Shown here: piece after piece, positions 8,681 to 22,002 of the stretch
Position numbering within the stretch: position 1 is the stretch's first letter
How the letters are laid out: each line of letters begins with the position of its first letter
Assembly: GCA_046758445.1 (NCBI GenBank)
Contig: JBHIAE010000039.1
Location: 1 to 26,567, forward strand
Origin: Candidatus Thorarchaeota archaeon
GTDB lineage: Archaea; Asgardarchaeota; Thorarchaeia; Thorarchaeales; Thorarchaeaceae
Direction of reading: 5' to 3'
DNA: 26,567 bases
Translations under genes and position numbers: made by a program
The notes under the pieces: model-generated
Databases searched by the model: none
Told to the model about the DNA's origin: nothing
What the model saw: only the letters and a program-made list of their open reading frames with translations

Positions 8681-9103
8681 CTAGAGCTGTAGCATGCTCT
8701 CTATGACGGTGTCGTAGTCGTCGTAGGCCCTGAGTCCGGGTATCTTGCCAATTGGCTTGCCGTTCTTGAATGCTATGACCATTGGAACGGACTGAACACC
8801 GAACTGAACAGTCGTTCGCCTGTTTCTGTCAATGTCGATCTTCGCGAAGTACACTTTGCTTGCGTAGTCAGAGGCAAGCGTAGCGAGTATTGGAGCTAGT
8901 ACCTTGCACGGCGCACACCAATCTCCAAAGAACTCGACCATGGCAGTCTTTGTCTGTGACATGGCTGGCCAGAACGTGGAGTCCGTAAGGAGATTCACGA
9001 CTCCGTTGGCCATGGGCTCCTCTACCTTTGGTTTCGCAGCACGCTCCATCATCAACTGCATCTTTCTACGGCGTATCTCCGCGAGTTCGTCATCGTTCAG
9101 CAT
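8681..9103 (-). CDS. trxA: Thioredoxin with N-terminal charged helix
   Basis: WCAPC active site and VQSVP cis-Pro loop. Likely ATG start at 9103 (MLNDDELAEIRRRK). Confidence 0.9.
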   Translation of the reverse strand: MLNDDELAEIRRRKMQLMMERAAKPKVEEPMANGVVNLLTDSTFWPAMSQTKTAMVEFFGDWCAPCKVLAPILATLASDYASKVYFAKIDIDRNRRTTVQFGVQSVPMVIAFKNGKPIGKIPGLRAYDDYDTVIESMLQL

Positions 9104-9247
9104 GTAGAGTCCCCACAACCGAGTGTGTAAGCTTCGTGCACAACCGAATATGAATTCTTCGGTGAGTCGATTTCTGTTGGCGCACTCAGGTTGCTTTAAA
9201 ACCGGGTGTCAATCTCAGAAATCAAACGACCAAGGAGTCTCTGTAGA

Positions 9248-10187
9248 GTGGCTGAAACCTCGTCTAAATACTACTTGGCAGTCGTCATCGCCATGTTCTT
9301 TTGGGGAGGATCGTGGGTTTCAGCTAAGATTCTGGTCACTATCGCGCCGCCTATGACTATCGGGGTTCCTCCGCTTCTTGGTGGCGACTGTTCTCTTCGC
9401 CATTCTGCTTCCGGCAATAGGGGTGATGCCTTGGAAGCTGTTCACTCGGAAGAATGCAAGACTACTCTTTCTGGTTGGTCTGACTGGAGTGTTTGGATAC
9501 GGCGTTCTCTTCCTTACGGGTATGCGGTTCACCACGGCTGCTCAAGGTGCAATCATAGCAGGATTCAACCCTGCGACAGTGAGCCTCTTTGCGCACATCA
9601 TACACAAGGAACGACTTGCCAGACGATGGCAATACACAGGTTTTGCAGTGGCTTTCATCGGAATCGTCCTCGTGGTGGGAGTGCAAGCCCTCATCGACTT
9701 TCAACTTGAGTACCTTGTTGGCAACTTGATAATCCTGGGGGCTATGTTCACGTGGGGCCTCTACTCATCCGTCGGCAAAGAAGCGATGAAGGAGATGTCC
9801 GCCTCCGAGGTGACGGCGGCGGGAGTAATGGTTGGCTGTGTGCTCTTTGGGCTTGGAGCGCTGACCGAAGAGGTGTGGCTACTTCCTGCGCTGGTCGACC
9901 CAGTCTTCTGGATCAATGTGTTCTATCTAGGTGCCCTCGTCACGTTTGTGGGCTTCTTGTTTTACTTCGAGGCCATCAAGAATCTCGGAGCGACTAGGGC
10001 TGGAGGTTTCATCAACCTCGTCCCAGTCTTTGGAACTTCGCTCTCCGTACTCATATTGAATGAGCCTATCTATTGGACCTTCATCCTAGGATTGATGCTG
10101 GTGATCTGTGGCATTGTCGTCATAAACCTGCCAAACAGGAATATCGAGAAACCTGCGGCCTTCGACGATGAAACGGAAGACAGATAA
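9248..10187 (+). pseudogene. EamA/DMT-family transporter with a 1-nt frameshift (real lesion or sequencing error)
   Basis: The N-terminus (MFFWGGSWVSAK...PPMTIG) is in the 9206 frame and the rest in the 9378 frame. Removing one G from GGGG 9362-9365 restores IGFLRFLVAT and a two-repeat EamA protein. Confidence 0.85.
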
Positions 10188-10245
10188 CCGTGACAACTCT
10201 GCCGACAAAATCCAGGGTGCTGAATAGTACCTCCGGGTGTTGTGT

Positions 10246-11760
10246 ATGAAGGCGTATGAAGAATTGATGACCAAAGCAAAGGACATTGAAGTTCTTGACT
10301 CATCAATAGGGATTGTCAACTGGGACTTGGAAACATACATGCCCCCTTCAGGCATCCAATTGAGAAGCGAACAACTCTCTCTTCTAGACCGGCTGAGTCA
10401 TGAGATGATTTCATCGCCACAGATTGGCGATCTGCTTAACGAAGTCAGGAAGAGCCTGGACGCTATGAGCGAGGTCCAGAGGCGAAACATCCACCTACTT
10501 CAAAGAGACCATGATATCGCGACTAGGATACCAGCCGAGCTTGTGGGCAGGCTGTCAAAACAGAAGGCAATTGCTACTGACATCTGGAAGAAGGCAAAGA
10601 CAGCGAAGGATTGGAAGATGTTTGAGCCAGAGCTGAAGAAACTCGTCGAGTTGTCCAGAGAACGAGAAGAAATCGCGATGGAAGTAAAGGGGATTGATTC
10701 TCTCTATGACTCTATGCTGGACGATTTCGAAAGGGGTCTAAGCGCCGATGTAGTATCGAAGGTCTTCCGCCAATTGCGCGATAGGCTAGTGCCTCTTGCA
10801 GAAAGATGTGCAGAACCATCAAAGGATGTGAGCAGAAGTTTTCTGTCAAAGAGAGTACCCATTGACGTTCAGACCAGAATTGCAGTGGACATCGGGAATC
10901 TGATTGGGTATGACACGACTTCCGATACTGCACGCGGGAGGATAGATCCGACCGAGCACCCATTCACGACAGGTTACTTTGATGACGTCAGAGTCACTCT
11001 GCACTACTATGAGAACAACGTTTCTGCAATGATTTATGCCATGCTACATGAGGGGGGTCACGCGCTCTATGAGCAAAACCTCAATCGCGAGTTCATGTAC
11101 CAACCTGTCGGAACTGCCGCAAGCTTCGGAATCCATGAATCAATGTCAAGATTCTATGAAAACATGATTGGTCGAACTCCCGAGTTCTGGGGGTACTATC
11201 TACCAAGACTGAACGAGATCACCAGCGGAACTTTCGCCGATGTAGACCAGGGCGAGTTTGTGAAAGGAACAACCTTGGTCAGACCTTCGAAAGTCAGGAT
11301 TGAAGCCGACGAGGTCACATATTCACTCCACATCATCATCAGGTTTGAGATTGAACGGGAACTATTGGCCGAGAAACTCACTGTTTCGGAACTTCCTCAA
11401 GTATGGAATGAGAAGTACGAGAAGTACCTCGGAGTTCAAGTCAAGCATGATGGAGAAGGCGTTCTTCAAGACACCCACTGGGGAAGCGGCCTTTACGGGT
11501 ATTTCCCCAGCTATGCTCTTGGCAATGTCTACGATGGACAATGGGCCCTCAAGCTGGGCAAAGATGTACCAGATTGGGGTAAGTCTGTATCTGAAGGTGA
11601 TCTAGACCCAGTCAATAGATGGTTGGTCGATAACATTCAGAGTAAAGGTGCACTTTACGATCCGGAAGACCTAGTCAAGCTTATCACCGGCAACCAACTA
11701 GACGCAAGGCCATTCTTAGACTACCTCGAACGCAAGTATTCCAGATTGCTTGCACTCTAG
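10246..11760 (+). CDS. Carboxypeptidase, M32 (Taq) family
   Basis: WDLETYMP, HPF, HEGGHALYEQ (HEXXH), HESMS, RIEADE, LQDTHW, GYFPSY. Confidence 0.95.
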   Translation: MKAYEELMTKAKDIEVLDSSIGIVNWDLETYMPPSGIQLRSEQLSLLDRLSHEMISSPQIGDLLNEVRKSLDAMSEVQRRNIHLLQRDHDIATRIPAELVGRLSKQKAIATDIWKKAKTAKDWKMFEPELKKLVELSREREEIAMEVKGIDSLYDSMLDDFERGLSADVVSKVFRQLRDRLVPLAERCAEPSKDVSRSFLSKRVPIDVQTRIAVDIGNLIGYDTTSDTARGRIDPTEHPFTTGYFDDVRVTLHYYENNVSAMIYAMLHEGGHALYEQNLNREFMYQPVGTAASFGIHESMSRFYENMIGRTPEFWGYYLPRLNEITSGTFADVDQGEFVKGTTLVRPSKVRIEADEVTYSLHIIIRFEIERELLAEKLTVSELPQVWNEKYEKYLGVQVKHDGEGVLQDTHWGSGLYGYFPSYALGNVYDGQWALKLGKDVPDWGKSVSEGDLDPVNRWLVDNIQSKGALYDPEDLVKLITGNQLDARPFLDYLERKYSRLLAL

Positions 11761-11867
11761 GGCGTACGCGGGTGCAAAGAGTTTTGAAGTCAGATTCCTC
11801 TGTTTGCATGAGATTTGCTAAGCAAGTGCGATTGTGGAAGACAGATTGCCGGTAGCGGTGTAGTTTC

Positions 11868-12725
11868 GTGAGAGAGATTCAGATTCATCTTGAGAGGGAG
11901 AAGTATTCCCCGGGAGATCGGATTGAGGGAAATGTCATTGTCGTGACTGATGACAGCTTTGAGTGCAATGCTGTCAATCTCAGATTCACGGCCACAGAGA
12001 GGTCTCGCGTCGTTAGAGGTAGCGGGAAGTACAAAAGAGTGTATGTTGAGAAACAGACTCATTTGGACCAGTTCTTTGAGCTAGAAGGAGAAACGGTCAT
12101 TCAAGAGGGACAAACATCGTACGATTTCGCAATTATACTGCCTAAGGATGCTCCAGCCAGCTTCCGGGGATTCTATAGCTTCATCAGGTACGAGCTAGAG
12201 GCTAAGGTTGAGATTTCTTGGGCGAAAGACCCGAGGGCAATGGTCGAATTCTCTGTTGAAGTTGATAGAGCTGTTCTAACACCTGTTTCTGTCAGTGATG
12301 TACTCCTGGAGGAAGAAACCAGGCTTCTCAGTGTCGAGCTAGACACGGATGTACTAAGTCCCGGAGAGCCTTTTGAGATTGAGGTCAGACTGGACAGTGA
12401 GATTGAATTCCGAGGTTTGAGGTGTGAACTAATACACGAGGAGAGAGTTTCTCCAAAGGGGCGAGATGCCAAACGCAGGACTGTTCTCACTGAGTGGTAC
12501 TCAGAAGAATTCAGAGTCCCAAGATACGTGCCCGTCAAAGTTTTGATGCAGACAGGGGATGACTGGCCTCGGGCATTCCAATCTGACCTGATAACTTGTC
12601 GCTACCTTCTGAAGATCACGCTTGACATCGCTTGGAGATTTGACAAGGTGATTGAGATACCGATCAGATACGGAGAAACTGATCGAGAAACCGAATCTTT
12701 CGAATTGGTTGGATTCGATTTCTAG
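11868..12725 (+). CDS. Arrestin-fold protein (alpha-arrestin / SpoOM / Vps26 clan), two beta-sandwich domains
   Basis: YSPGDRIEGNVIV and LPKDAPASFRGFYSFIRYELEAKVEI match arrestin_N. A second similar domain carries LSPGEPFEIEV...PRAFQSDLITCRYLLKITLDI. Confidence 0.8.
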   Translation: MREIQIHLEREKYSPGDRIEGNVIVVTDDSFECNAVNLRFTATERSRVVRGSGKYKRVYVEKQTHLDQFFELEGETVIQEGQTSYDFAIILPKDAPASFRGFYSFIRYELEAKVEISWAKDPRAMVEFSVEVDRAVLTPVSVSDVLLEEETRLLSVELDTDVLSPGEPFEIEVRLDSEIEFRGLRCELIHEERVSPKGRDAKRRTVLTEWYSEEFRVPRYVPVKVLMQTGDDWPRAFQSDLITCRYLLKITLDIAWRFDKVIEIPIRYGETDRETESFELVGFDF

Positions 12726-12737
12726 AAGGTGTGGCCG

Positions 12738-13298
12738 TCATACATTGTTTGAGATTGGACCCTCCTGTGGTATCACACCCTTCTCACATATCAGTTCGAG
12801 AAGAGTATGAATTGCTTCATTGACGTTCTCTCCTGATTCAGTATTCGTGAAGTAACAAGGCGAATCTAGCGCAAGTGCTACCTCCAGAATCTCATCCCGG
12901 GTCACATTACTGGGCAGATCTGACTTGTTTGCAATAAGAACGAGAGGAACATCTCCACCTGTTTCGACTTCCAGCATATCTACCCATCTCTGAATGCTCT
13001 CGAAGGTATCGGGATTCGAAACGTCAAAGACAAGAATCAGCCCGGACACATCGAGGAGACAGCTCCCGGGATCCCCGGACTCCAGTGAGAATGTTCGGCT
13101 TGTGAGCTCCACACTACAAGGATAGACCCCATGTACTGTGAAGTCTCTCACTAGTTTGTCCTCGCTGACAGTTTCGTCTGTGAGTCCCTCCTTTCGTAAG
13201 CTCTCCAAGATGCTAGTCTTGCCTACCCCGGGGTCTCCAACTATGCAAATCTTCAGCGGGGCGCTAGTTCCTGACACTGCCGCCTCCTCCGTGGACAA
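12738..13298 (-). CDS. Rab/Ras-like small GTPase, atypical (no DxxG)
   Basis: KICIVGDPGVGKTS (G1), LILVFDVS...TFESIQRW, LVLIANKSDL (G4), TNTESGENV (G5-like). Confidence 0.88.
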   Translation of the reverse strand: MSTEEAAVSGTSAPLKICIVGDPGVGKTSILESLRKEGLTDETVSEDKLVRDFTVHGVYPCSVELTSRTFSLESGDPGSCLLDVSGLILVFDVSNPDTFESIQRWVDMLEVETGGDVPLVLIANKSDLPSNVTRDEILEVALALDSPCYFTNTESGENVNEAIHTLLELICEKGVIPQEGPISNNV

Positions 13299-13857: not shown

Positions 13858-14240
13858 CTAGAACCTTGAAGCCCATTGGTTGCGAGTTTGACGCCTTTCA
13901 CCCACCACTATCATGACGATGATTGCGAGGACCACAAATAGCCCTACAACACCTAGGATTGTCATCAATACTACAGGGTCAATCAATAGGCTCTGAAACG
14001 CTTCAGTTGTTGTTTCCTGAGTTTCACTCGTTATCGTCGTGGTTGTTGTGGTGGCCGGTTGAGTAATGTCGTAGTAGTCGTTGTGGTAGATGTAGTCGTG
14101 GTTGTAGTAGTAGTTGCTGTTGTTGTGGTGGTAGGAACCCCTGCTCCACTAGTCACGCCCAGAACCAGCGTCAAGCACATGGCGAGGAACAGAATGGATG
14201 CACTCTTTGAGGAAAGTGTCCTTCGCATTCTAACGAGCAT
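13858..14240 (-). pseudogene. Small mucin-like Thr-rich cell-surface protein (signal peptide, Thr stalk, C-terminal TM), one frameshift
   Basis: After a 1-nt shift near 14067 the frame continues ITQPATTTTTTITSETQETTTEAFQSLLIDPVVLMTILGVVGLFVVLAIIVMIVVGERRQTRNQWASRF*. Confidence 0.7.
14036..14133 (-). repeat. Low-complexity (ACN)n Thr-codon tract
   Basis: Imperfect GTN trinucleotide run on the + strand. Confidence 0.8.
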
Positions 14241-14439
14241 TCAGTGGTATTCCTAGACCCGCTCCTTGAATTGATTTTAAGCTTCTTCGCACCAAGAGTC
14301 GGGCATGAAAGGAGAATCAGCTTCTCTGGAAGGACTACAACTCGGAGTCGCTAACATTGAGAACTGAAACCCTGCAGTCCAATCCGTAGGTGACTGAGCT
14401 TTGAAAAGGAGTGCTCAGCTGGTTGTGTGAACAACTGCC

Positions 14440-14689
14440 CTACTTCGTACGGCGAATGTACCAGATGATCTTGTCAGCTTCCTCGACCATCTCCACTATC
14501 TCGTGACCCGTCCTGTCGGCAAAGGCGGGAAAGTCTTTCTTTGTGCCGATGTCAGTCGCGATGACCTGAAGAATCTGGGCAATATCGACCTCTTTCGACC
14601 TCTTGAATCTCCTTCTTTGCCTTGAGAATAGGCATTGGACATCTAAGTCCTGTCGCATCGAAGGTCCTGGAAACATCGTGGTCTACCAT
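14440..14689 (-). pseudogene. tusA: TusA/SirA-family sulfur carrier interrupted by a 10-bp tandem duplication
   Basis: ATG at 14689 gives MVDHDVSRTFDATGLRCPMPILKAKKEIQEV (CPxP motif). Removing one TCGACCTCTT copy (14585-14604) joins it to DIAQILQVIATDIGTKKDFPAFADRTGHEI, giving 79 aa. Confidence 0.9.
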
Positions 14690-14874
14690 ACTCAATACCC
14701 GCGAACGGGCGGAAATGCTCAGTAGTCTAAAGCATTATGTTTGCGCCATTCCCAACTGAATCCCTCTCTACCAGATTCAGTTTCAACCTGTAAATAACGA
14801 GTTCAATTTGGATTCCTGTTCCAACACTCTTATTTACTGGAGTTCTTCGGCCGGGCCCAACCTGGTGTACTACT

Positions 14875-15270
14875 ATGGCAGTATTTCAGCTACTATTGTT
14901 CCTTCTCTTCGCCATGGGATTTGCGACCATGTTTAGTGGATTCATGGTGGCGAGAAGAATGGGTTACGTATTGATGAACTAGGTCATGCTTCTAATGCTG
15001 GGTATGTTGGTGAGCCTCATCACATTAATCGCGGGAATTGTGGCACCAACGTTCTCGCTTGGATTCATGGACTTGGTGCAACTACTACTAGTGATTGATC
15101 TTATTCTCTTTGGGCTGGCTCTCCTGATGGAATTCATTCAGGCAGTGCCCGTGCTAATGAAGACAATGCAAGGCGGACCAATTCACAGCTCCCACATAAC
15201 AAACTTGGTTCTGTCGGTCTTCCTGATCCTCGCAATGGTCCTGTACTATGTTGACCTTGCGGTCTTGTAG
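14875..15270 (+). CDS. 4-TM membrane protein with an internal in-frame TAG at 14980-14982
   Basis: ATG 14875 gives MAVFQLLLFLLFAMGFATMFSGFMVARRMGYVLMN*V, in frame with the 14986 ORF. Hydrophobic character continues across the stop. Confidence 0.65.
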
Positions 15271-15290
15271 AAGTTGGAGATGATAACAAG

Positions 15291-15653
15291 ATGGCAGAAC
15301 TATATCTCTTAGGTCAATGGGGACCCGAAACAGCCGAGAGGTGCTTTGGACCATTTGTGACTGGAACGACAGCTCAGGCTCAGGAGGTTCAAACAAACAT
15401 ATTCCTGATGATGGACGCAGTGTATCTGATGAGGAGGGGCGTAGCCGAGAAAGTGAAAGCTCCCGGCTTTCCGCCACTGCAAGACCTCATCGATGCATTC
15501 CTTGAGGCCGGAGGCAAGATCCAAGTTTGTTCCAATTCTGTCGAATTCCGTGGAATCACTCAAGAAGACCTCAGGGACCCCAGAATCGAGATTGCAGGCG
15601 CCGCGACTATGGTTGATGACGTCCTGAAACACGAGAGAACCATGTTCTTCTAG
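15291..15653 (+). CDS. Stand-alone DsrE-family (DsrE/F-like) putative sulfurtransferase
   Basis: GPETAERC, IFLMMDAVYL, GGKIQVCSNSVEFRGI, IAGAATMV. Confidence 0.85.
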   Translation: MAELYLLGQWGPETAERCFGPFVTGTTAQAQEVQTNIFLMMDAVYLMRRGVAEKVKAPGFPPLQDLIDAFLEAGGKIQVCSNSVEFRGITQEDLRDPRIEIAGAATMVDDVLKHERTMFF

Positions 15654-15663
15654 CAACTCTGAA

Positions 15664-15688
15664 GGAGAGAACAGTTCTTGTTCTCTCC
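15664..15688. terminator. Perfect hairpin between convergent genes
   Basis: GGAGAGAACA-GTTCT-TGTTCTCTCC, 10-bp stem with 5-nt loop. Confidence 0.65.
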
Positions 15689-15728
15689 AATTCCATTTCT
15701 TTGAAGTACCATGGCGAAAGGCCGCTTC

Positions 15729-15956
15729 TCAGTCTTCTTTCTTGGAGAAGTAGACATAGACAGACTGGTCACTGTCATCCATGATGATGCTGTACTTAAG
15801 GTTCTCAGCTAGGCCCACATGGAACTTGAGTTCATCAATTGCATCATCGTCTTCCTTGCGAAGATGGAGATGATCCTTCAGGAACCTGAGCGAAACTGCA
15901 ATATCCTTGTCGGCAATCTCATTGACCATTTCCTCGAGCCTATCCCTCACGGTCAT
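15729..15956 (-). CDS. Small acidic hypothetical protein (~75 aa)
   Basis: Protein-like composition from ATG 15956 (MTVRDRLEEM). The ORF track extends it to 16100, which is probably non-coding. Confidence 0.6.
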   Translation of the reverse strand: MTVRDRLEEMVNEIADKDIAVSLRFLKDHLHLRKEDDDAIDELKFHVGLAENLKYSIIMDDSDQSVYVYFSKKED

Positions 15957-16153
15957 GTCTATCTCGGTGTTAGACTTCTTCAATTCAGATATTCTCTTAG
16001 AGTGCTTCTTCCATGCCAAGATAAAACACCCACTCTCGAATCCTAGTTCTGCTTCTTTTTCAATCTTTGCAGAAACAGTTCCGAAATCGTCGAAACACAA
16101 GCTGAAGGAGCACTATCAAGAGAACAGTTGTGCAAGAAACCCAAGGTTGAATG

Positions 16154-16483
16154 CTATAGCGAGATGACTCTGTCATACTGTTCCATAATCAAATCAACTG
16201 CATCCTCGTAGCTAATAGGCTCAACATCAACGACTAGGCGAGCCTCGATACCACGCTCTTCGACGTGGTTCCTAGTCGCATGGATTGGCGCACCTAGACG
16301 CAACAATGTTTCAGACTCAGGACAGCCCTTGTCCGCAAGATAGACTCCATCCTGCACCAAGAGCAATCCTAGATCGTGTCCACCGGCCTTCAAAGCACCG
16401 GCAATCTCAGTCAGGTTGTGACAGTCAGACGAAATCCACAGGAGAAACTTCACTCTTTTCACCTCAGTATCAGAATGTGACAA
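16154..16483 (-). CDS. dsrH: DsrH/TusB-family sulfur relay subunit
   Basis: LLLVQDGVY, HVEERGI, ISYEDAVDLI. Third gene of the operon; exact start uncertain. Confidence 0.85.
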   Translation of the reverse strand: MSHSDTEVKRVKFLLWISSDCHNLTEIAGALKAGGHDLGLLLVQDGVYLADKGCPESETLLRLGAPIHATRNHVEERGIEARLVVDVEPISYEDAVDLIMEQYDRVISL

Positions 16484-16822
16484 TCACCTCATTCTCGGTA
16501 AAGGCCTGCGCAACTTTCGATTCATCAACTACCTCAACCTCTTCGGATGTTTCGGCAGTGCTGATACCCCTATCTTCCAATGACTTCTCGCTTGCCAGGA
16601 TTCGACCATCGAAATCGAGGTAGGTAGCCTTGAACATTCGGAAAGGCACTTCGCTAGCAACCTTCAGCAGAGAATAGACTCCATCTCCCATGAAGAGCAG
16701 TGTCGGCTCGTGATCCATTCCGAACATCCCCACAGCAGCTCTCCATCCCTCGAAATTGATGATTCTGCCATATAGGGCCTGCTGTTGACAAGAATGAGAA
16801 TCTTACGTTCACGAAACTTCAT
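16470..16822 (-). pseudogene. dsrF: DsrF/TusC-family subunit with a 2-nt (AT) insertion frameshift
   Basis: GGAGGAGTGA SD then ATG 16822 gives MKFRERKILILVNSRPY. Removing AT at 16770-16771 continues GRIINFEGWRAAVGMFG...LLFMGDGVYSL...SLEDRGI, giving 116 aa. Confidence 0.85.
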
Positions 16823-16833
16823 AATCACTCCTC

Positions 16834-17199
16834 CTAGAAACAGAATGTGACGAACCGGTCCGACTCCCCTATATACTCCGCCAACTCAGTAAGACCCGAA
16901 ACCTCAACTCCCTCAATAAAGTCCGACCCACGTTGGTCGAAGCCCCTGGCTGAAGTACAAAGTCCACATGCTTGAAACTCGGCCCCGGCATCAGCCAGCT
17001 CTTGAAGTTTGTCGTTCATCGGTATGTCTGGATCAGGGTCCTGACCTACCTTTGCATTGTTAACACCATCGACGAACAGGAAGACCTTGACTCCGTATCC
17101 CATCTCTAGGGCAGCCTTCGCAAGGTCATAGAACGTGTGACTGTTCTGGTAGGTGTATGGTGAAGTCAGAAGAAGGATGCCAAGGGTCTTCTTTTCCAA
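16834..17199 (-). CDS. dsrE: DsrE/TusD-family sulfurtransferase subunit
   Basis: LTSPY, VFLFVDGVNN, ACGLCTSARG (persulfide Cys region), SGLTELAEYIGESDRFVTF. Confidence 0.9.
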   Translation of the reverse strand: MEKKTLGILLLTSPYTYQNSHTFYDLAKAALEMGYGVKVFLFVDGVNNAKVGQDPDPDIPMNDKLQELADAGAEFQACGLCTSARGFDQRGSDFIEGVEVSGLTELAEYIGESDRFVTFCF

Positions 17200-17341
17200 G
17201 CAAACTCAACTCCATGAGATTTGCCACGGCGGCACACCACCTGTTTAAAACTGTAACTCTACGACCAGGCGCCTTCTAAGGCCAACATTGAAAAAGCCTA
17301 CAAGAATACGCCGACTCGAGCGAACAAGTCAAAATGGTGCG

Positions 17342-18424
17342 ATGCTCTTGTCAGAGATTACTGTCAACTTCACAGACAAAGACGGCAACACAAGAGAGAT
17401 TGAATTTGACACGGAAGAAACTATTATTGACCTCAGTCGAAAAGGCATAGTAGACATAGACCTGACCGTTCTAGATCCCATGTTGGACCTGACAGAGATT
17501 CACCTCTCTTCAAACAAGATTACCAGCATAGATCTTTCGCCTATCACAGCACTTGACAATCTGCAGGTCCTCGACTTGTTCAAGAATTCACTCACAACTG
17601 TCGCTCTTGGGCCACTTGCGGAATGTAAGACTCTGCGTGAACTCAACTTGGGTGTCAACCAGATTGAATCGTTTGATCTGACACCACTCTCTTCATGCCA
17701 GAACTTGAGAAGACTCAGATTGTTCAACAACAAGATTGCTGATATCGACCTAGAACCACTCTCCATGTGTACAGGTCTTGAGAGTCTTGAACTGGAAACG
17801 AATATGATGGAGTCAATCGACCTCAGTCCACTGAGTAGCTGCAAGGAACTCCAGCAGCTCAATCTGATGTACAACTCTCTCAGCGAGATAGACCTGGAGC
17901 CTTTGTCCGAGTGTCGGAAGATGAAGTTTCTTTATCTTCATCATAATGCCTTGGGATCGATTGATATAACTCCACTGTCGAACGCCAAGGACTTCAGAAT
18001 ACTGAGGTTGGGAGGAAATGAGATTCGGGCGATTGACCTAGAACCATTGGCCAACTGCAAGGATTTGAGGAGACTCGAACTCGCGATGAATGCTCTTGCA
18101 GAGCTTGATCTCTCTCCCTTGGCAAACTGCAGGGAATTGAGGGTTCTTGATATCGCAGGGAATCAACTTAGATCAATCAATCTCGCACCTTTGGCCGAGT
18201 GTGTTGCTCTTGAAGAACTCTACCTCCACAGCGACCATCCGGAGGAGAATGAATTCACCTTTCTGAACCTGAGCCCACTCTTCGCCTTGGGTGAACTTGA
18301 AGACCTCGGAGTCCCAGTCACTTCAGAGCTTCGTGCAGACTCTGCTTTGCGAGAACAGAAGGTGCTACCTCCAGCTCTCGAGGAGCTCAGAGAAGATGGA
18401 AGAATCACGTGGGATGAGCTCTGA
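17342..18424 (+). CDS. Cytoplasmic leucine-rich repeat protein (~12 x 22-aa repeats)
   Basis: Repeating IDLxPLxxCxxLxxLxLxxNxI/L unit. No signal peptide; ATG at 17342. Confidence 0.92.
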   Translation: MLLSEITVNFTDKDGNTREIEFDTEETIIDLSRKGIVDIDLTVLDPMLDLTEIHLSSNKITSIDLSPITALDNLQVLDLFKNSLTTVALGPLAECKTLRELNLGVNQIESFDLTPLSSCQNLRRLRLFNNKIADIDLEPLSMCTGLESLELETNMMESIDLSPLSSCKELQQLNLMYNSLSEIDLEPLSECRKMKFLYLHHNALGSIDITPLSNAKDFRILRLGGNEIRAIDLEPLANCKDLRRLELAMNALAELDLSPLANCRELRVLDIAGNQLRSINLAPLAECVALEELYLHSDHPEENEFTFLNLSPLFALGELEDLGVPVTSELRADSALREQKVLPPALEELREDGRITWDEL

Positions 18425-18517
18425 CAAGGGCGTAGACCTTTTCCAGATAGGTCATAAGTGGGCTTAAGAACGCCAGAACCATATTACCTAGATAATACAT
18501 TCGCGGAGGGTCGCGAA

Positions 18518-18754
18518 TTGCCTCATGGGGATGAGGAGATCGTCAGGATCAAGCTAGCGAAACTATATGGGGAGCTATTGAACGGACCGCTTGGTGAAGA
18601 AGTACTACGGCGTCTAAAGGAGGGGAAGAGCTTCATACTTAGGTCTGAAGTCGACATGCTACTAAAAGTGACGAAAATCAAGGGCAAGGCTGTAGTTGAA
18701 GCAAAGATGAAGGAGGACAACGACAGCTTCTTCCGCTACCAACCATTGGGCTAA
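18518..18754 (+). CDS. Small hypothetical protein, paralog A
   Basis: GGAGG upstream of TTG 18518 (ORF open from 18458). Shares motifs with the next ORF. Confidence 0.7.
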   Translation: MPHGDEEIVRIKLAKLYGELLNGPLGEEVLRRLKEGKSFILRSEVDMLLKVTKIKGKAVVEAKMKEDNDSFFRYQPLG

Positions 18755-18903
18755 CATTGAGTCAGAGTATTCTGGTCCTGTCCCGATTCTTCTTGTGGGC
18801 GAATCTGCAATTCAGAGCATATCTACACATTTCATTTATAGTGTGAAAATGCTGTTTCATCTAGTTAATACCCGTTTGAGCATACTACGGGGGAGTACTC
18901 ATC

Positions 18904-19107
18904 ATGAGCTACTCTCATAAGAAAGATTCCAACGAGAAAGCTGCCATTCAGAGGTACACTCAGTACCTCAATGGTCCAGGCAAGATAGTACTCGATAATC
19001 TGGACGAGGGGGACAGCTTCATCATGGAAGCTGCTCAGCACACGATCAAAGTTACAAAACGCCTTGGAAAGGCTGTCGTTCAGATTATGCCTATGAAACC
19101 TGAGTAA
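18904..19107 (+). CDS. Small hypothetical protein, paralog B
   Basis: GGGAG upstream of ATG. LNGP...VL..L.EG.SFI...KVTK..GKAVV is shared with paralog A. Confidence 0.75.
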   Translation: MSYSHKKDSNEKAAIQRYTQYLNGPGKIVLDNLDEGDSFIMEAAQHTIKVTKRLGKAVVQIMPMKPE

Positions 19108-19199
19108 GAGCAGTATACTGGTTCTGGCCTGACATTTGCTACAGCAAAGCGGTTATATCTTGGAAATGCCGACTCTGTTGAGCTAGAGGCCTGACTATC

Positions 19200-19847
19200 A
19201 TGGTCGTTGAGATTGATGATGAAACCAAGACGCAGGTGATGGAGGTTTTCGAAGGACTCGAAAATGATGTCACGATGCATGTCTTCATTGAGGGGAAGAA
19301 GTGTCTCTATTGTCAGGACGTCAGGGACATGGCGGAGCAAATCGCAGAACTCTCAGAGAAGATCAGTGTCATCGTACATGAAGACACTCTGGGGGAGGGA
19401 AAGGCGGCTGAATTCGGTGTCGTGCGTGTTCCTGCAACCATTCTACATGGAGCTGATGATTACAAGATACGGTTCTATGGCATTGCTGCAGGACATGAGT
19501 TCGGCGCTTTGATTGGCTCAATACTGGATGTGTCTAAGGGAACATCTCAGCTCCCAGCTGATATCATAGAAGACATCAAAGCCGTTGACAAGCCAGTTCA
19601 TATTCAGGTGTTCACGACTCCGCAGTGTCCATATTGCCCAGCAATGGTCAGACTAGCCAACCAAGCAGCCATTCTCAATCCTTTGATCCAGTCAGACATG
19701 GTTGAGTCACTAGAGTTTCGAGAGCTCACTGAGAAGTACGAGGTGTTTGGAGTCCCGAAGACTATCTTCAACGAAACTGATTCCATCGAAGGTCTGACGC
19801 CTCCAGAAATCTTCGTTGAGAAGCTCTTTGAAGCGACTGACAAATAG
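19200..19847 (+). CDS. Protein disulfide oxidoreductase (PDO / AhpF N-terminal-like, two thioredoxin folds)
   Basis: CLYC and CPYC motifs, RVPA, IRFYGIAAGHEF, VFGVPKT. Confidence 0.92.
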   Translation: MVVEIDDETKTQVMEVFEGLENDVTMHVFIEGKKCLYCQDVRDMAEQIAELSEKISVIVHEDTLGEGKAAEFGVVRVPATILHGADDYKIRFYGIAAGHEFGALIGSILDVSKGTSQLPADIIEDIKAVDKPVHIQVFTTPQCPYCPAMVRLANQAAILNPLIQSDMVESLEFRELTEKYEVFGVPKTIFNETDSIEGLTPPEIFVEKLFEATDK

Positions 19848-19877
19848 ATCGAAACGATTTGACAGAGGCATCATATA

Positions 19878-20162
19878 ATGGAGAAACTCTCTTACGTCAT
19901 TATGCTAAGACCAGCCCCTTCATATGGTGAGGAAGAAACAGAGGAGATTGTGGGACAGCACTTCAAGTATCTTCAGAGCCTTCAGGTCTCCGGCGAGTTG
20001 GTGATGGTCGGGCGATTCAGCGATGTGCTTGTTGGTCTGACAATGATAGAGTGCGATTCCCTCGAGAGAGCCACTGAGATAATGAAGAACGACCCAGCTG
20101 TGAAAGCCAACATTTTCCATGCTGAACTCTACCCATGGAGAGTCGCATTGAACCGTGAGTAG
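19878..20162 (+). CDS. YciI-family protein
   Basis: HFKYLQSL...G.L...GRF, NDPAVKANIFHAELYPW. Confidence 0.8.
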   Translation: MEKLSYVIMLRPAPSYGEEETEEIVGQHFKYLQSLQVSGELVMVGRFSDVLVGLTMIECDSLERATEIMKNDPAVKANIFHAELYPWRVALNRE

Positions 20163-20177
20163 TCAGCTGGTGTAGTC

Positions 20178-21107
20178 CTACGGACATGTGAAGACGAACT
20201 CTCGCTCGTTTACATAACGGTATGCTTGGTAGGCCGCATGTACGCCTTCGGCAACACCAGTAATGGCTTGTTTGAACTCTGTATCCGCCACGTCACCTGC
20301 AGCAAATACTCCATCGACGTTGGTTCGACTAGAGCGGTCAATCTTGATTTCGCCTTTCTCATTTGTTTCTACGCCGATCTTCTTGGCAATACCTGAATAA
20401 GGAATGCCGCCGATTGCAATGAAGACCCCGTCTAACTCCAGCTTGTCTGAACCGTCGTATGGTTTATCCAGCTTTACCCCGGTAACCCTCGAATCGCCCA
20501 GTATCTCGGTCACATTTGTTTCAGTTATCACTTCAATCTTTGACTCAGATTCAATGCGGCGCCCATTGATTGGCTCTGGGCGTATCTTCGCTTTGCGGTA
20601 TATCATGTATACCTTCGGACAGTACTTCGCGAGAAGTAACGCCTCTTTCGCGGCACTGTCGCTTCCGCCTATGACTGCAACCTCTTTGTCCCTGTAGAGA
20701 GGGGCGTCGCAAAGCGCACAGTATGAGACTCCCTTGTTTCTTAGTTCGTCGTGGCCAGGTACCTCAAGTTCTCGTTCTTTCATCCCTGTGGCAAATAGGA
20801 TCGTCTTACCTAGGTACGTCTTGTTTGTGGTGACAACGTAGAAGAATCCCTGACTGTCGGGAATAACATCCACCACGGTGCCCGTTTCAATAGTCACAGG
20901 ATAGTCAAGAGCATGTTCCTTGAGATTGTCGGCGAGCTCTTTCCCTGTAAGCTGCACGAAGCCTGGGTAGTTGGCTACGTCATCAGTAAGCGTGATGGTT
21001 CCCCCATCAACGTCCCCAATCACCACAACTGAAAGATCCAATCGGGCTGAGTACATGGCTGCGCCGTAGCCTGTTACGCCCGAACCAATAACAACGAGAT
21101 CGTACAA
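20178..21107 (-). CDS. trxB: Low-molecular-weight thioredoxin reductase-like flavoprotein
   Basis: DLVVIGSG, NYPG, FATG, GVSYCALCD, TNVDGVFAAGD, KQAITGVAEG. Confidence 0.92.
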   Translation of the reverse strand: MYDLVVIGSGVTGYGAAMYSARLDLSVVVIGDVDGGTITLTDDVANYPGFVQLTGKELADNLKEHALDYPVTIETGTVVDVIPDSQGFFYVVTTNKTYLGKTILFATGMKERELEVPGHDELRNKGVSYCALCDAPLYRDKEVAVIGGSDSAAKEALLLAKYCPKVYMIYRKAKIRPEPINGRRIESESKIEVITETNVTEILGDSRVTGVKLDKPYDGSDKLELDGVFIAIGGIPYSGIAKKIGVETNEKGEIKIDRSSRTNVDGVFAAGDVADTEFKQAITGVAEGVHAAYQAYRYVNEREFVFTCP

Positions 21108-21111
21108 TGCA

Positions 21112-21354
21112 TCACACTCCGAGCTTTCGTTTCATTCTCCTCTCAGTTCTTCTGTCGAATCCAACATAAAATTCATCGCCAATGACTGTAACAGGAATTG
21201 CCCTCTGCCCACTCACTTCTTCAAGCTCCTCGAATACAGCGGGACTTGTAAGAACACATTTCTCTTCCATCTCCACGCCGACGCCCGAGAGAAACTCCTT
21301 CAACTTCTTGGAGTTGGGACAGTCGGGAGCCATGTAAACAACAGCTTTGGTCAT
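21112..21354 (-). CDS. Glutaredoxin/NrdH-like redoxin, monothiol CPNS
   Basis: VVYMAPDCPNS, SGQRAIPV, VGFD. Lies 4 nt upstream of trxB. Confidence 0.85.
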   Translation of the reverse strand: MTKAVVYMAPDCPNSKKLKEFLSGVGVEMEEKCVLTSPAVFEELEEVSGQRAIPVTVIGDEFYVGFDRRTERRMKRKLGV

Positions 21355-21519
21355 CCTGACAAGGAACCTCCACGAGTCTTCTTCTTCTTCACGCTAGTAT
21401 AAGGCCAGAGAGATATCTTTTGCTGATATAGCTTATGAAGTGTCTATCGTTGAATCCCATTGCCGAAGAGTCATAAGCGAGCGTGTAGCCTCACAAGTTT
21501 GTTCAACTAGAGGAGAGAG

Positions 21520-22002
21520 TTGATTATGAACACAGAAGAAACTCTCGAGTTCATAGACAAGCAGATCGATATGGAGCTAAAAATCATCGAGATTGTTGAA
21601 GAGAACGTTGCAGAACTTGGCAATGTATTCATAAGGGATCTCCTGCTGGGGGTCTCTCAGGACTCCAAGAAGCATGCAACCCTCCTGAGGTCACTGAGAA
21701 AGGCTGTGGAAGGTCCAACTCCTTTCATTGGCGAGCCCGAGCGGGATAGGATTGCAAAGGGTATCGAGAAACATATCAAGATGGAAGAGATGGCCGTCAA
21801 GACATACGCTGAGCTTGCGGAGGAGAGTGACAGTGACCAAGTCAAGACCGTTGCGATGATGATTAGAGAAGATGAGTTGCGCCACCATGTGCTTCTCAAG
21901 GAACTGCATAAGACCGTCGTGGAACCCGAAACACTCACAGAAGAGGACATATGGGACATCCTTTGGAAAGACACTCCCTGGCACGGCAGTCCTGGTGGAT
22001 AG
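21520..22002 (+). CDS. Ferritin-like / rubrerythrin-like four-helix bundle protein
   Basis: E...DSKKH and EE...DELRH metal-ligand-like pattern; GGAG SD. Confidence 0.8.
   Translation: MIMNTEETLEFIDKQIDMELKIIEIVEENVAELGNVFIRDLLLGVSQDSKKHATLLRSLRKAVEGPTPFIGEPERDRIAKGIEKHIKMEEMAVKTYAELAEESDSDQVKTVAMMIREDELRHHVLLKELHKTVVEPETLTEEDIWDILWKDTPWHGSPGG

What the first reader, a model, noticed from the sequence alone, without database searches (positions are those of the whole stretch)
14440..22002. Asgard sulfur-relay plus thiol-redox island: TusA, two DsrE systems, PDO, TrxB, Grx and ferritin-like protein
Seen: once hidden frameshifts are repaired, about 7.5 kb hold tusA (CPMP), a 4-TM protein followed by a stand-alone DsrE, a complete dsrE-F-H operon, PDO, YciI, trxB-grx and a ferritin-like gene. 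Known: TusA-DsrEFH relays feed DsrC/DsrAB or TusE/MnmA in bacteria, and TusA-DsrE3 feeds sHdr in sulfur oxidisers. None of those acceptors is in this window. Inference: a persulfide/polysulfide trafficking or reduction system coupled to thioredoxin-type reductases, possibly an electron sink for peptide fermentation (iorAB and peptidases are nearby).
Basis: partly seen in the sequence, partly recalled or inferred. Interest (0 to 1): 0.72.

Follow-up and report, generated by a model that had tools for sequence, protein, structure and literature searches.

The report
Broken Thorarchaeal sulfur relay beside thioredoxin genes
This Thorarchaeota contig carries a set of sulfur-carrier genes (TusA, a DUF5400 membrane protein, a DsrE3-like protein, DsrEFH) next to an ordinary thioredoxin-reductase/PDO redox cluster, but here three of the carrier genes are knocked out by young mutations while the redox genes are intact, so the two sets are neighbours rather than one machine.

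Summary
The gene content is confirmed by Pfam, NCBIfam and PDB searches. The "hidden frameshifts" are real lesions, not noise. tusA carries an exact 10-bp tandem duplication. The DUF5400 four-helix membrane gene has TAG in place of an invariant Gln. dsrF has a 2-bp TA insertion. Contigs assembled separately from three runs (one study) carry the stretch with no indel, and every relative examined is intact, including one at 88% DNA identity. TAG is this genome's commonest stop among long ORFs and no tRNA-CUA was found, so recoding is unlikely. dN/dS of 0.04-0.19 shows the lesions are young.

The divergent trio of tusA and DUF5400-dsrE3-like appears in every one of 54 Thorarchaeota loci whose DNA reaches those positions. 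dsrEFH sits beside it only in some lineages. PDO-TrxR-Grx-rubrerythrin, which travels with the LRR gene, adjoins dsrEFH only within this family. It lies 22 kb away in one genus and has an independent distribution across genomes.

No DsrC/TusE was found in 41 Asgard genomes. This genome has no MnmA or DsrAB, and a second tusA-dsrE-iscS-like operon is intact.

Verdict: an accessory sulfane-sulfur relay, recently inactivated, beside an ordinary NTR/PDO thiol system. The proposed coupling is not supported.

The parts
14440..14689 (-). tusA, disrupted pseudogene. The N-terminal piece carries the RCPMP active-site motif. The C-terminal piece is in another frame.
   Evidence: Pfam TusA hits on both pieces (35.1 and 33.2 bits, cut-off 28.6). 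The frames were read. Relatives have one frame.
14585..14604 (.). Exact 10-bp tandem duplication (TCGACCTCTT x2 on the + strand) that frameshifts tusA.
   Evidence: TRF gives period 10, 2.0 copies, 100% match. It appears as a 10-bp insertion relative to L066/G007, L059/G004 and L064/G015. It is present in contigs of 3 runs.
14875..15270 (+). DUF5400-family 4-helix membrane protein gene, interrupted by an in-frame TAG at 14980-14982.
   Evidence: Relatives read CAG/CAA (Gln) at this codon. Gln36 is invariant in the 12-sequence alignment A1. Of 61 Thorarchaeia copies, only this one has an internal stop. Pfam DUF5400 is recorded on orthologues.
15291..15653 (+). Stand-alone DsrE3-like sulfur carrier, intact. 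Conserved Cys80 in the VCSNS motif.
   Evidence: Pfam DsrE 52.2 bits. Best solved relative is 3MC3 (S. solfataricus SSO1125, DsrE3A), E 2e-10, with the active Cys aligned and the second Cys of C-x7-C absent.
15729..16100 (-). hyp123, a conserved hypothetical gene downstream of dsrH. Found only in this genus.
   Evidence: No Pfam family. Orthologues at 59-86% identity in genus g1 loci.
16154..16483 (-). dsrH/tusB-like gene, intact.
   Evidence: Pfam DsrH 33.7 bits. TIGR03011 44.3 bits, below the 49.2 cut-off. PDB 2D1P_C TusB, E 0.011. Conserved Cys residues in relatives.
16470..16822 (-). dsrF/tusC-like gene, disrupted by a 2-bp TA insertion at about 16771-16774 after codon 17.
   Evidence: DNA alignment with L066, L059 and L064. 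Relatives are in one frame. Pfam DsrE on the C-terminal piece. The intact G004 copy hits TIGR03010 TusC at 37.2 bits, below cut-off.
16834..17199 (-). dsrE/tusD-like gene, intact. ACGLC motif, with the first Cys aligned to A. vinosum DsrE Cys78.
   Evidence: Pfam DsrE 86.6 bits. PDB 2HY5_A, E 3e-8, alignment. 90-93% identical within the genus.
17288..18424 (+). Leucine-rich-repeat protein gene, divergent from dsrE. It travels with the PDO block, not with dsrEFH.
   Evidence: Pfam LRR_8, 148 bits. In G018 the LRR gene lies with PDO-trxB-grx, 22 kb from dsrEFH.
18458..19107 (+). Two small paralogous unknown genes (hyp98 at 18458-18754, hyp67 at 18904-19107).
   Evidence: No Pfam family. Conserved between LRR and PDO across the family.
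19200..19847 (+). Protein disulfide oxidoreductase (PDO) with two thioredoxin folds, CLYC and CPYC.
   Evidence: TIGR02187, 226.7 bits, above the 185 cut-off. PDB 1J08 (E 2e-41) and 1A8L.
19878..20162 (+). YciI-like protein gene.
   Evidence: Pfam YCII, 48.4 bits.
20178..21107 (-). Low-Mr thioredoxin reductase with a CALC redox motif.
   Evidence: Pfam Pyr_redox_2, 150.7 bits. PDB 3F8P S. solfataricus TrxB-3, E 2e-61. TIGR01292, 310.7 bits against a cut-off of 343.45.
21112..21354 (-). Monothiol glutaredoxin-like protein gene (CPNS; relatives CPHS), 4 bp upstream of trxB.
   Evidence: Pfam Glutaredoxin, 50.7 bits. Relatives aligned.
21520..22002 (+). Rubrerythrin/ferritin-like four-helix protein gene, divergent from grx-trxB.
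   Evidence: Pfam Rubrerythrin, 29.7 bits. 63-77% identical across the family.

Best explanation
The 7.5 kb holds two separable units that are adjacent only within this Thorarchaeota family.

Unit 1 is a sulfur-carrier set: tusA, divergently paired with DUF5400-dsrE3-like, plus the operon dsrE-dsrF-dsrH-hyp123.

Inferred mechanism for the intact version in relatives: sulfane sulfur (persulfide, polysulfide or thiosulfonate) is bound on the TusA Cys (CPMP motif) and on Cys80 of a DsrE3-like protein, presumed trimeric like other DsrE3 proteins. The small DUF5400 membrane protein holds or feeds this step at the membrane. The sulfur then passes to the DsrE Cys of a DsrEFH-type complex and on to an unidentified acceptor that is not DsrC/TusE. 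The route looks accessory, serving scavenging, detoxification or energy-linked sulfur handling, rather than an essential biosynthetic role.

Shown for this genome: unit 1 has recently been inactivated by three independent lesions, namely a 10-bp tandem duplication in tusA, a nonsense codon in DUF5400 and a 2-bp insertion in dsrF. These are young pseudogenes. Sulfur trafficking is presumably left to the intact tusA-dsrE-iscS-like operon on contig C13 and to the cysK-TusA fusion on C61.

Unit 2 comprises LRR, two small genes, PDO-YciI, Grx-like-TrxR and a rubrerythrin-like protein. It is the ordinary archaeal thioredoxin-reductase/PDO disulfide-reducing and oxidative-stress system. It is intact and does not depend on unit 1.
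For: Lesions are real and specific to this genome.
- The stretch 14300-17300 is recovered without any indel in contigs of three runs/samples at about 11-23x.
- DNA alignments show the 10-bp insertion, TAG versus CAA/CAG, and the TA insertion against three relatives, including G007 at 87.6% DNA identity.
- Only G000 among 61 Thorarchaeia DUF5400 copies has a stop.
- TAG ends 602 of 1339 ORFs of at least 300 codons, and no tRNA-CUA was found.

Lesions are clustered.
- Three of 7 relay genes are broken within 2.3 kb.
- Against this, at most about 8 of 205 G004 orthologues show possible lesions elsewhere in the genome.
- My rough binomial figure from these numbers is P about 2e-3 or lower.

Lesions are young.
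- dN/dS between G000 and G007 is 0.04-0.19 for relay genes, like other species pairs.
- There is no extra divergence of G000 proteins.

Unit 1 is a module.
- The tusA/DUF5400/dsrE3-like trio is present in every one of 54 Thorarchaeota loci whose DNA reaches those positions.
- A tusA-dsrE(DrsE_2) pair lies beside dsrEFH in another Asgard family (L115, L118).
- Active-site Cys residues are conserved.

The units are separable.
- In G018 LRR-PDO-trxB-grx-ferritin lies 22 kb from the relay.
- G004 has the relay but no PDO was found with this query.
- PDO occurs alone or with trxB in other Asgard genomes.
- dsrEFH occurs without PDO in other Asgard genomes.

Unit 2 identity.
- PDO is above the equivalog cut-off. 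The best solved relatives are P. horikoshii/P. furiosus PDO and S. solfataricus TrxB-3.
- NTR-PDO is an established archaeal disulfide relay that serves peroxiredoxin and SurR (PMC7278568).

Backup relay: an intact tusA-dsrE-cysteine-desulfurase-like operon on C13.
Against: - The acceptor and the physiological sulfur species are unknown. No biochemical data exist for any Asgard TusA/DsrE or for DUF5400 (no paper mentions DUF5400).
- The window has a fourth frameshift in an unrelated EamA transporter gene, and an earlier unchecked note reports another gene with amber codons. Some general pseudogene load therefore exists, which weakens the specificity argument.
- Logan contigs are consensus sequences and can hide minority intact alleles. 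The three runs come from one study.
- dsrE, dsrH, dsrE3-like and hyp123 remain intact under apparent purifying selection. This would also fit a still partly functional system.
- Synteny of dsrEFH with PDO-trxB over about 8 genera is compatible with a loose functional link.
Confidence: 0.68

Rival explanations
1. TusA, the two DsrE systems and PDO/TrxR/Grx form one persulfide/polysulfide trafficking-and-reduction system, with thioredoxin-type reductases reducing carrier-bound sulfane sulfur to H2S as an electron sink for peptide fermentation.
For: dsrEFH-LRR-hyp98-PDO-(yciI)-trxB-grx-ferritin synteny is kept in 10 of 12 family loci examined. iorAB, an M32 carboxypeptidase and an asparaginase lie in the window. 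Thiol reductases can in principle reduce persulfides (general knowledge).
Against: The block contains an unrelated LRR gene and at least five transcription units on alternating strands. The PDO block is 22 kb from the relay in G018, and no PDO was found in G004. The trio has other neighbours in most Thorarchaeota loci. Other Asgard dsrEFH loci have no PDO/trxB. In this genome the relay is broken while all redox genes are intact.
Confidence: 0.12
2. The relay of intact relatives is a biosynthetic sulfur relay. It supplies the unidentified intermediate carriers for archaeal tRNA thiolation (NcsA/TtuA-like, ThiI-like enzymes) or for cofactor synthesis, as TusA-TusBCD does for MnmA in E. coli.
For: The DsrE/F/H proteins hit the TusD/TusC/TusB models best. 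The genome encodes an Ncs6/TtuA-type PP-loop enzyme and two ThiI-like enzymes. The sulfur donors and carriers for archaeal s2U/s4U synthesis are listed as unknown (PMC5372739).
Against: No TusE/DsrC in 41 Asgard genomes and no MnmA here. Scores are far below the equivalog cut-offs. There is no adjacency to the thiolation enzymes. The relay is dispensable in this genome, and dsrEFH was not found in some high-quality Thorarchaeia genomes. In other Asgard families dsrEFH sits beside GcvH-like and Fe-S proteins, not tRNA enzymes.
Confidence: 0.25
3. The lesions are artefacts or minority or mosaic alleles, and the relay is functional in the living population.
For: All three runs belong to one study and are held only as consensus contigs. 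dN/dS shows purifying selection. MAGs can mix strains.
Against: Three separately assembled runs agree without a single indel at 11-23x. A 10-bp exact duplication and a C-to-T nonsense change are not typical read errors. For all three lesions to be the consensus they must each be majority alleles.
Confidence: 0.07
4. The 10-bp tandem duplication is a reversible slipped-strand on/off switch for tusA, that is phase variation rather than decay.
For: An exact tandem duplication can be lost precisely by slippage. An earlier unchecked note on this window proposed the same (e1-5681257).
Against: No variant without the duplication appears in three runs. Two further lesions of non-reversible kinds sit in partner genes. 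No relative carries the repeat.
Confidence: 0.04

Closest known systems
DsrEFH (Allochromatium vinosum, PDB 2HY5) / TusBCD (E. coli, PDB 2D1P) sulfur-relay heterohexamer
   Same: Three paralogous small genes in the order E-F-H. The DsrE subunit's Cys aligns with the A. vinosum active-site Cys78. DsrH keeps conserved Cys residues. A tusA gene lies nearby.
   Different: Only 30-40-bit similarity, far below the NCBIfam equivalog cut-offs. No DsrC/TusE, DsrAB or MnmA partner anywhere in 41 Asgard genomes or this genome. An extra conserved gene (hyp123) ends the operon. dsrF is frameshifted here.
dsrE3A-dsrE2B-tusA clusters of sulfur oxidisers (Metallosphaera cuprina, Liu et al. 2014, PMC4175335; sHdr-associated TusA/DsrE3, Tanabe et al. 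2024, PMC11094781)
   Same: A tusA gene paired with a single-domain DsrE3-like protein whose active Cys aligns with S. solfataricus SSO1125 (3MC3). Such pairs carry thiosulfonate or persulfide sulfur between Cys residues.
   Different: The second Cys of the DsrE3A Cys-x7-Cys motif is absent. There are no hdr, dld or lbpA genes alongside. The partner gene is instead a DUF5400 membrane protein, found in every Thorarchaeota locus whose DNA covers that position. The host is an anaerobic Asgard archaeon.
YeeE/YeeD (TsuA/TsuB) thiosulfate-uptake pair
   Same: A TusA-family protein genetically coupled to a small membrane protein. This suggests sulfur hand-over at the membrane.
   Different: DUF5400 has about 4 helices, 131 aa and no cysteine. 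There is no sequence or fold similarity to YeeE (Foldseek found nothing below E 0.1). The TusA hit to the YeeD model is negligible.
Archaeal NADPH-thioredoxin reductase / protein disulfide oxidoreductase system (S. solfataricus TrxB3-PDO; Pyrococcus PDO 1A8L/1J08)
   Same: PDO has two CxxC thioredoxin folds and scores above the equivalog cut-off. TrxR is 2e-61 to Sso TrxB-3 with a CxxC motif. They sit with a Grx-like and a rubrerythrin-like gene, as expected for a peroxide/disulfide stress set (PMC7278568).
   Different: The HRRxxxR NADPH motif reads YRKAKIR, so the donor is uncertain. The Grx-like partner is monothiol (CPNS/CPHS). An LRR gene and two unknown small genes are embedded in the conserved block.

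Membership tests
TusA (PF01206) | Profile match above the gathering score | tested here: met
   Both pieces match: 35.1 bits (profile 21-70) and 33.2 bits (profile 2-27), cut-off 28.6.
TusA (PF01206) | Active-site Cys in a CPxP motif | tested here: met
   GLRCPMPILK is read in the N-terminal frame.
TusA (PF01206) | Uninterrupted reading frame | tested here: not met
   A 10-bp tandem duplication shifts the frame after about residue 33. Relatives are in one frame.
DsrEFH / TusBCD | Three paralogous genes in one operon in the order E(D)-F(C)-H(B) | tested here: met
   dsrE 17199-16834, dsrF 16822-16470 and dsrH 16483-16154 lie on the minus strand. Pfam DsrE/DsrE/DsrH.
DsrEFH / TusBCD | DsrE active-site cysteine (A. 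vinosum Cys78) | tested here: met
   The phmmer alignment to 2HY5_A places query FQAC on MVVC. ACGLC is invariant in 13 relatives.
DsrEFH / TusBCD | Scores above the curated equivalog cut-offs (TIGR03012/03010/03011) | tested here: not met
   52.0 against 89.25, 37.2 against 94.15, and 44.3 against 49.2 bits.
DsrEFH / TusBCD | DsrC/TusE acceptor encoded in the genome | tested here: not met
   PF04358 gives no match in G000 (92.7% complete) or in any of 41 Asgard genomes. The E. coli control is positive.
DsrEFH / TusBCD | Terminal enzyme DsrAB or MnmA present | tested here: not met
   The only NIR_SIR protein is an assimilatory-type one beside cysH and cysK. The only hits to the MnmA profile are weak PP-loop matches to Ncs6/TtuA-like, ThiI-like and NadE proteins.
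DsrE3A (Liu et al. 2014) | [quoted passage not shown] | tested here: not met
   The first Cys is conserved (VCSNS). Gly occupies the position of the second Cys in the alignment to 3MC3.
DsrE3A (Liu et al. 2014) | Genetic linkage with tusA | tested here: met
   tusA lies divergently upstream of DUF5400-dsrE in all of the 54 Thorarchaeota loci whose flanks allow it to be seen.
DsrE3A (Liu et al. 2014) | Linkage with hdr-like, dihydrolipoamide dehydrogenase or lipoate-binding protein genes | tested here: not met
   None in the window or among the conserved neighbours of the trio. GcvH-like neighbours were seen only beside dsrEFH of other Asgard families.
DUF5400 (PF17379) | Profile match above the gathering score | tested here: inconclusive
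   The window copy read through the stop scores 18.8 bits against a cut-off of 25. Many orthologues carry a precomputed PF17379 hit or the NCBI name 'DUF5400 family protein'.
Protein disulfide oxidoreductase (TIGR02187) | Equivalog score and two CxxC thioredoxin folds | tested here: met
   226.7 bits against a cut-off of 185. CLYC and CPYC are present in the sequence. 1J08, E 2e-41.
Low-Mr thioredoxin reductase (TIGR01292) | Equivalog score, redox CxxC, FAD/NAD(P)H folds | tested here: inconclusive
   310.7 bits, just under the 343.45 cut-off. CALC aligns with the CSVC of Sso TrxB-3 (3F8P, E 2e-61). The NADPH motif HRRDTFK reads YRKAKIR.

The most novel reading that the evidence does not exclude
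The divergent trio of tusA and DUF5400-dsrE3-like, found across Thorarchaeia, is a previously undescribed membrane-linked sulfane-sulfur capture module. Here a cysteine-free 4-helix DUF5400 protein is the membrane partner of TusA/DsrE. The module works together with a DsrC-independent DsrEFH complex that delivers sulfur to a new kind of acceptor, possibly a GcvH/LbpA-Hdr-like system as hinted by other Asgard loci. The joint decay of tusA, DUF5400 and dsrF in this genome would then be natural genetic evidence that the three belong to one pathway.
Probability: 0.35. Interest if true: 0.6.

Novelty: new variant of a known kind. Interest (0 to 1): 0.42.

Why it matters
TusA/DsrE relays are well studied in sulfur-oxidising bacteria and Sulfolobales, but not in Asgard archaea. 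This locus shows three things.

1. Thorarchaeia keep a fixed tusA/DUF5400/DsrE3-like trio. That gives the orphan family DUF5400 its first functional context.
2. Asgard DsrEFH-type complexes exist without any DsrC/TusE, so a different acceptor must exist.
3. One natural population has knocked out three genes of the set while leaving the neighbouring thioredoxin system untouched. This is a natural experiment that links the two DsrE systems to each other and argues against a link to TrxR/PDO.

It also warns against 'repairing' frameshifts when inferring metabolism from MAGs. This organism probably cannot run the relay that its annotation would suggest.

Tried and rejected
- **Stop-codon recoding (Pyl or a suppressor) as the explanation of the in-frame TAG.** Rejected. 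TAG is the commonest stop of long ORFs (602 of 1339). Aragorn, run with and without introns, finds no tRNA-CUA. The single 'tRNA-Stop (tta)' call with an intron looks like a false positive. The codon replaces an invariant Gln.
- **Apparent in-frame stops in 26 of 205 orthologues.** On inspection most lay in over-extended N-termini or in spurious antisense ORFs. They were not used as evidence of recoding.
- **Relaxed selection on the relay.** Not seen in a relative-rate comparison or in pairwise dN/dS.
- **Fold of DUF5400.** AlphaFold2 model with pLDDT 82. Foldseek against the PDB gave only generic helical bundles, best E 0.15.
- **Protein Atlas.** It returned only the protein's own cluster.
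- **Full HMM search of 1.8 billion representatives.** Only 9 hits.
- **Literature.** No paper mentions DUF5400, and none describes Asgard DsrEFH function.
- **Expression.** No RNA holder was listed for the stretch.
- **Second GcvH-like gene of this genome (C48).** It lies beside GlcD/GlcF-like genes, not TusA/DsrE, so it gives no sHdr-type link here.

Full report
**1. What is there**

The window is a whole 26.6-kb contig (C39) of a 3.25-Mb genome that is 92.7% complete. Orthologues in public records are named Candidatus Thorarchaeota or Promethearchaeota MAGs. Holding runs are labelled hydrothermal vent metagenome.

ORF listing with Pfam, NCBIfam and PDB searches gives this map:
- tusA (-) 14440-14689
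- a 131-codon four-helix membrane gene of family DUF5400 (+) 14875-15270
- a stand-alone DsrE (+) 15291-15653
- hyp123 (-) 15729-16100
- dsrH (-) 16154-16483
- dsrF (-) 16470-16822
- dsrE (-) 16834-17199
- an LRR protein (+) 17288-18424
- two small paralogous unknowns (+) 18458-19107
- PDO (+) 19200-19847
- YciI (+) 19878-20162
- trxB (-) 20178-21107
- a monothiol Grx-like gene (-) 21112-21354
- a rubrerythrin/ferritin-like gene (+) 21520-22002
- iorAB from 22432

**2. The 'hidden frameshifts' are three real lesions**

- tusA is split by an exact 10-bp tandem duplication at 14585-14604 (TRF, 100% match). Against three relatives it aligns as a clean 10-bp insertion.
- The DUF5400 gene has TAG at 14980-14982 where relatives read CAG or CAA. 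That Gln is invariant in a 12-sequence alignment. Among 61 Thorarchaeia genomes that hold the gene, only this copy has an internal stop.
- dsrF has a TA insertion (cccTAtatgg, about 16771-16774) after codon 17 relative to three relatives.

The closest relative is G007, whose contig is identical to record CAYFTD010000167. It is 87.6% identical in DNA over this stretch and has all three genes in frame.

Logan contigs assembled separately from three runs (three samples, one study; word depth about 11-23) cover 14300-17300 with no indel and only 1-4 substitutions. The lesions are therefore not an artefact of one assembly. The limits are that contigs are consensus sequences and that the runs are not independent studies.

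Recoding is unlikely. TAG terminates 602 of 1339 ORFs of at least 300 codons, and no tRNA with anticodon CUA was found.

**3. Are the lesions more than background?**

I translated 299 ORFs from sixteen 20-kb samples of the complete G004 chromosome and compared them with G000. Of these, 205 had orthologues at 60% identity or more.
- Most apparent in-frame stops were over-extended N-termini or antisense ORFs.
- At most four looked like frameshifts.
- My upper bound is about 8 lesions in 205 genes.

Three broken genes out of seven in the relay (2.3 kb) then has a rough binomial probability of about 2e-3 or less. This is my own arithmetic.

Two caveats apply. The region was chosen after the fact. 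The window also holds a fourth frameshift, a +1 G in an EamA transporter gene near 9370.

The lesions are young. Pairwise dN/dS between G000 and G007 is 0.04-0.19 for the relay genes, no higher than in other species pairs. G000 proteins are no more distant from outgroups than G004 proteins.

**4. Two units, not one**

The trio of tusA(-), DUF5400(+) and dsrE3-like(+) is found in the same arrangement in every one of 54 Thorarchaeota loci whose DNA reaches those positions. DUF5400 is single-copy in 61 of 87 Thorarchaeia genomes, and in 21 of 24 high-quality ones.

dsrEFH lies beside the trio only in this genus and a few other lineages. Elsewhere the trio is flanked by a PAS protein, an ArsR-type regulator, a probable P-type ATPase and similar genes.

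The block dsrEFH-LRR-hyp98-PDO-(yciI)-trxB-grx-ferritin is kept in 10 of 12 family loci, but the link is not fixed:
- In G018 the LRR-PDO-trxB-grx-ferritin block sits 22 kb from the trio and dsrEFH.
- G004 has the relay, yet no PDO was found with this query.
- In other Asgard families PDO stands alone or with trxB only.
- In other Asgard families dsrEFH has no PDO or trxB nearby.
- The presence patterns of DsrE and PDO across 41 genomes differ in both directions.

Within the window the genes form at least five transcription units on alternating strands.

Together with the fact that only relay genes are broken here, this argues that the thiol-redox genes are neighbours of the relay rather than part of it.

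**5. What each unit is**

*Relay.*
- DsrE is nearest to A. vinosum DsrE (2HY5_A), with the active Cys aligned.
- DsrF and DsrH hit the TusC and TusB models.
- All three score well below the equivalog cut-offs.
- The stand-alone DsrE is nearest to S. solfataricus SSO1125 (3MC3). Tanabe et al. class that protein as DsrE3A (PMC11094781). The Thorarchaeal protein lacks the second Cys of the Cys-x7-Cys motif that Liu et al. use to define DsrE3A (PMC4175335; alignment).
- DUF5400 has no cysteine. It has a strongly conserved KTMQGGPIHSSH motif. Its modelled fold has no informative match, and no paper mentions it.

*Acceptors.*
- No DsrC/TusE in this genome or in 41 Asgard genomes.
- No MnmA. The weak hits are an Ncs6/TtuA-type enzyme, two ThiI-like enzymes and NadE.
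- No DsrAB. There is only an assimilatory sulfite reductase-cysH-cysK/TusA cluster.
- Many CCG-domain proteins exist, but none lies near a TusA or DsrE gene.

*Backup and wider context.*
- A second, intact tusA-dsrE-cysteine-desulfurase-like operon lies on C13.
- In two other Asgard families dsrEFH lies beside TusA genes, GcvH-like proteins and Fe-S or DGC/thioredoxin-like proteins. This context is reminiscent of the sHdr-LbpA systems of sulfur oxidisers. It is a lead for the missing acceptor, not a finding.

*Redox unit.*
- PDO passes the equivalog cut-off and matches Pyrococcus PDOs.
- TrxR matches S. solfataricus TrxB-3 at 2e-61.
- The NTR-PDO pair is an established archaeal disulfide relay that reduces peroxiredoxin and SurR (PMC7278568).

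**6. Mechanism**

*Shown:* gene identities, conserved cysteines, conserved gene arrangements, the three lesions, and the lack of the canonical acceptors.

*Inferred for intact relatives:* TusA and the DsrE3-like protein (presumed trimeric) exchange Cys-bound sulfane sulfur at or near the membrane with DUF5400 as partner. DsrEFH then carries the sulfur to an unknown acceptor that is not DsrC.

I judge the route accessory (about 0.45) rather than biosynthetic (about 0.25-0.3), for four reasons:
- It can be lost while a second relay persists.
- dsrEFH was not found in some high-quality Thorarchaeia genomes.
- It includes a membrane partner.
- In other Asgard families it sits beside GcvH-like and Fe-S proteins.

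*Inferred for this genome:* the relay does not work, and the PDO/TrxR system serves general disulfide and peroxide stress.

**7. Novelty**

This is a new variant of a known kind of system. The new points are:
- the fixed DUF5400 partnership;
- DsrEFH without DsrC across the Asgard genomes searched;
- the joint, recent decay of three relay genes, which supports a functional link between the two DsrE systems and argues against a link to TrxR/PDO.

The scan had already noted the 10-bp duplication on this window and the C13 and C61 sulfur operons of the same genome. I checked these directly.

Noticed in passing
window 9206-10187 (+), near 9370-9375: The EamA/DMT transporter gene is split by an extra G in a G-run relative to the G004 orthologue. 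This is a fourth disabling lesion on the contig, in a gene unrelated to sulfur.
   Followed up: partly
window 14031-14240 (-): A small ORF with a signal-like N-terminus and a long Thr-rich run lies over a degenerate 3/12/18-nt repeat (TRF rows 14036-14123).
   Followed up: no
window 11868-13298 and 17288-18424: Eukaryote-signature-type genes flank the locus: an arrestin-like protein, a Ras-family small GTPase and an LRR protein. The LRR gene moves together with the PDO-trxB block in G018.
   Followed up: partly
window 21112-21354 (-): The Grx-like protein is monothiol (CPNS; CPHS in all relatives). It has a conserved second Cys at position 33 and a basic C-terminal tail. It gives weak hits to the YruB and 'Uxx-star' (seleno)protein families.
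   Followed up: partly
L119 (G038:C191) 1-2843 and L116 (G030:C1) 9418-12773: In two other Asgard families dsrEFH lies beside two TusA genes, a GcvH-like protein and a 4Fe-4S protein, or beside a GcvH-like, a DGC-domain and a thioredoxin-like protein. This context is like sHdr-LbpA systems and may point to the missing acceptor.
   Followed up: partly
L024/L113 (G033:C60) 3264-3626: The DsrE homologue of this Asgard genome has one in-frame TGA. It may be a selenocysteine-containing DsrE.
   Followed up: no
G000:C13 44248-45960 (L001 1468-3212): An intact tusA-dsrE-cysteine-desulfurase-like operon. The desulfurase-like protein reads SSNDFYGP where the PLP-binding His-Lys is expected.
   Followed up: partly
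G000:C61 12727-16196: An assimilatory cluster of sulfite reductase-like protein, PAPS/APS reductase, and a cysteine synthase with a C-terminal TusA-like domain.
   Followed up: partly
window 8681-9118 (-): A 145-aa thioredoxin with a 40-residue N-terminal extension lies 10 kb upstream of the PDO/TrxR block.
   Followed up: no
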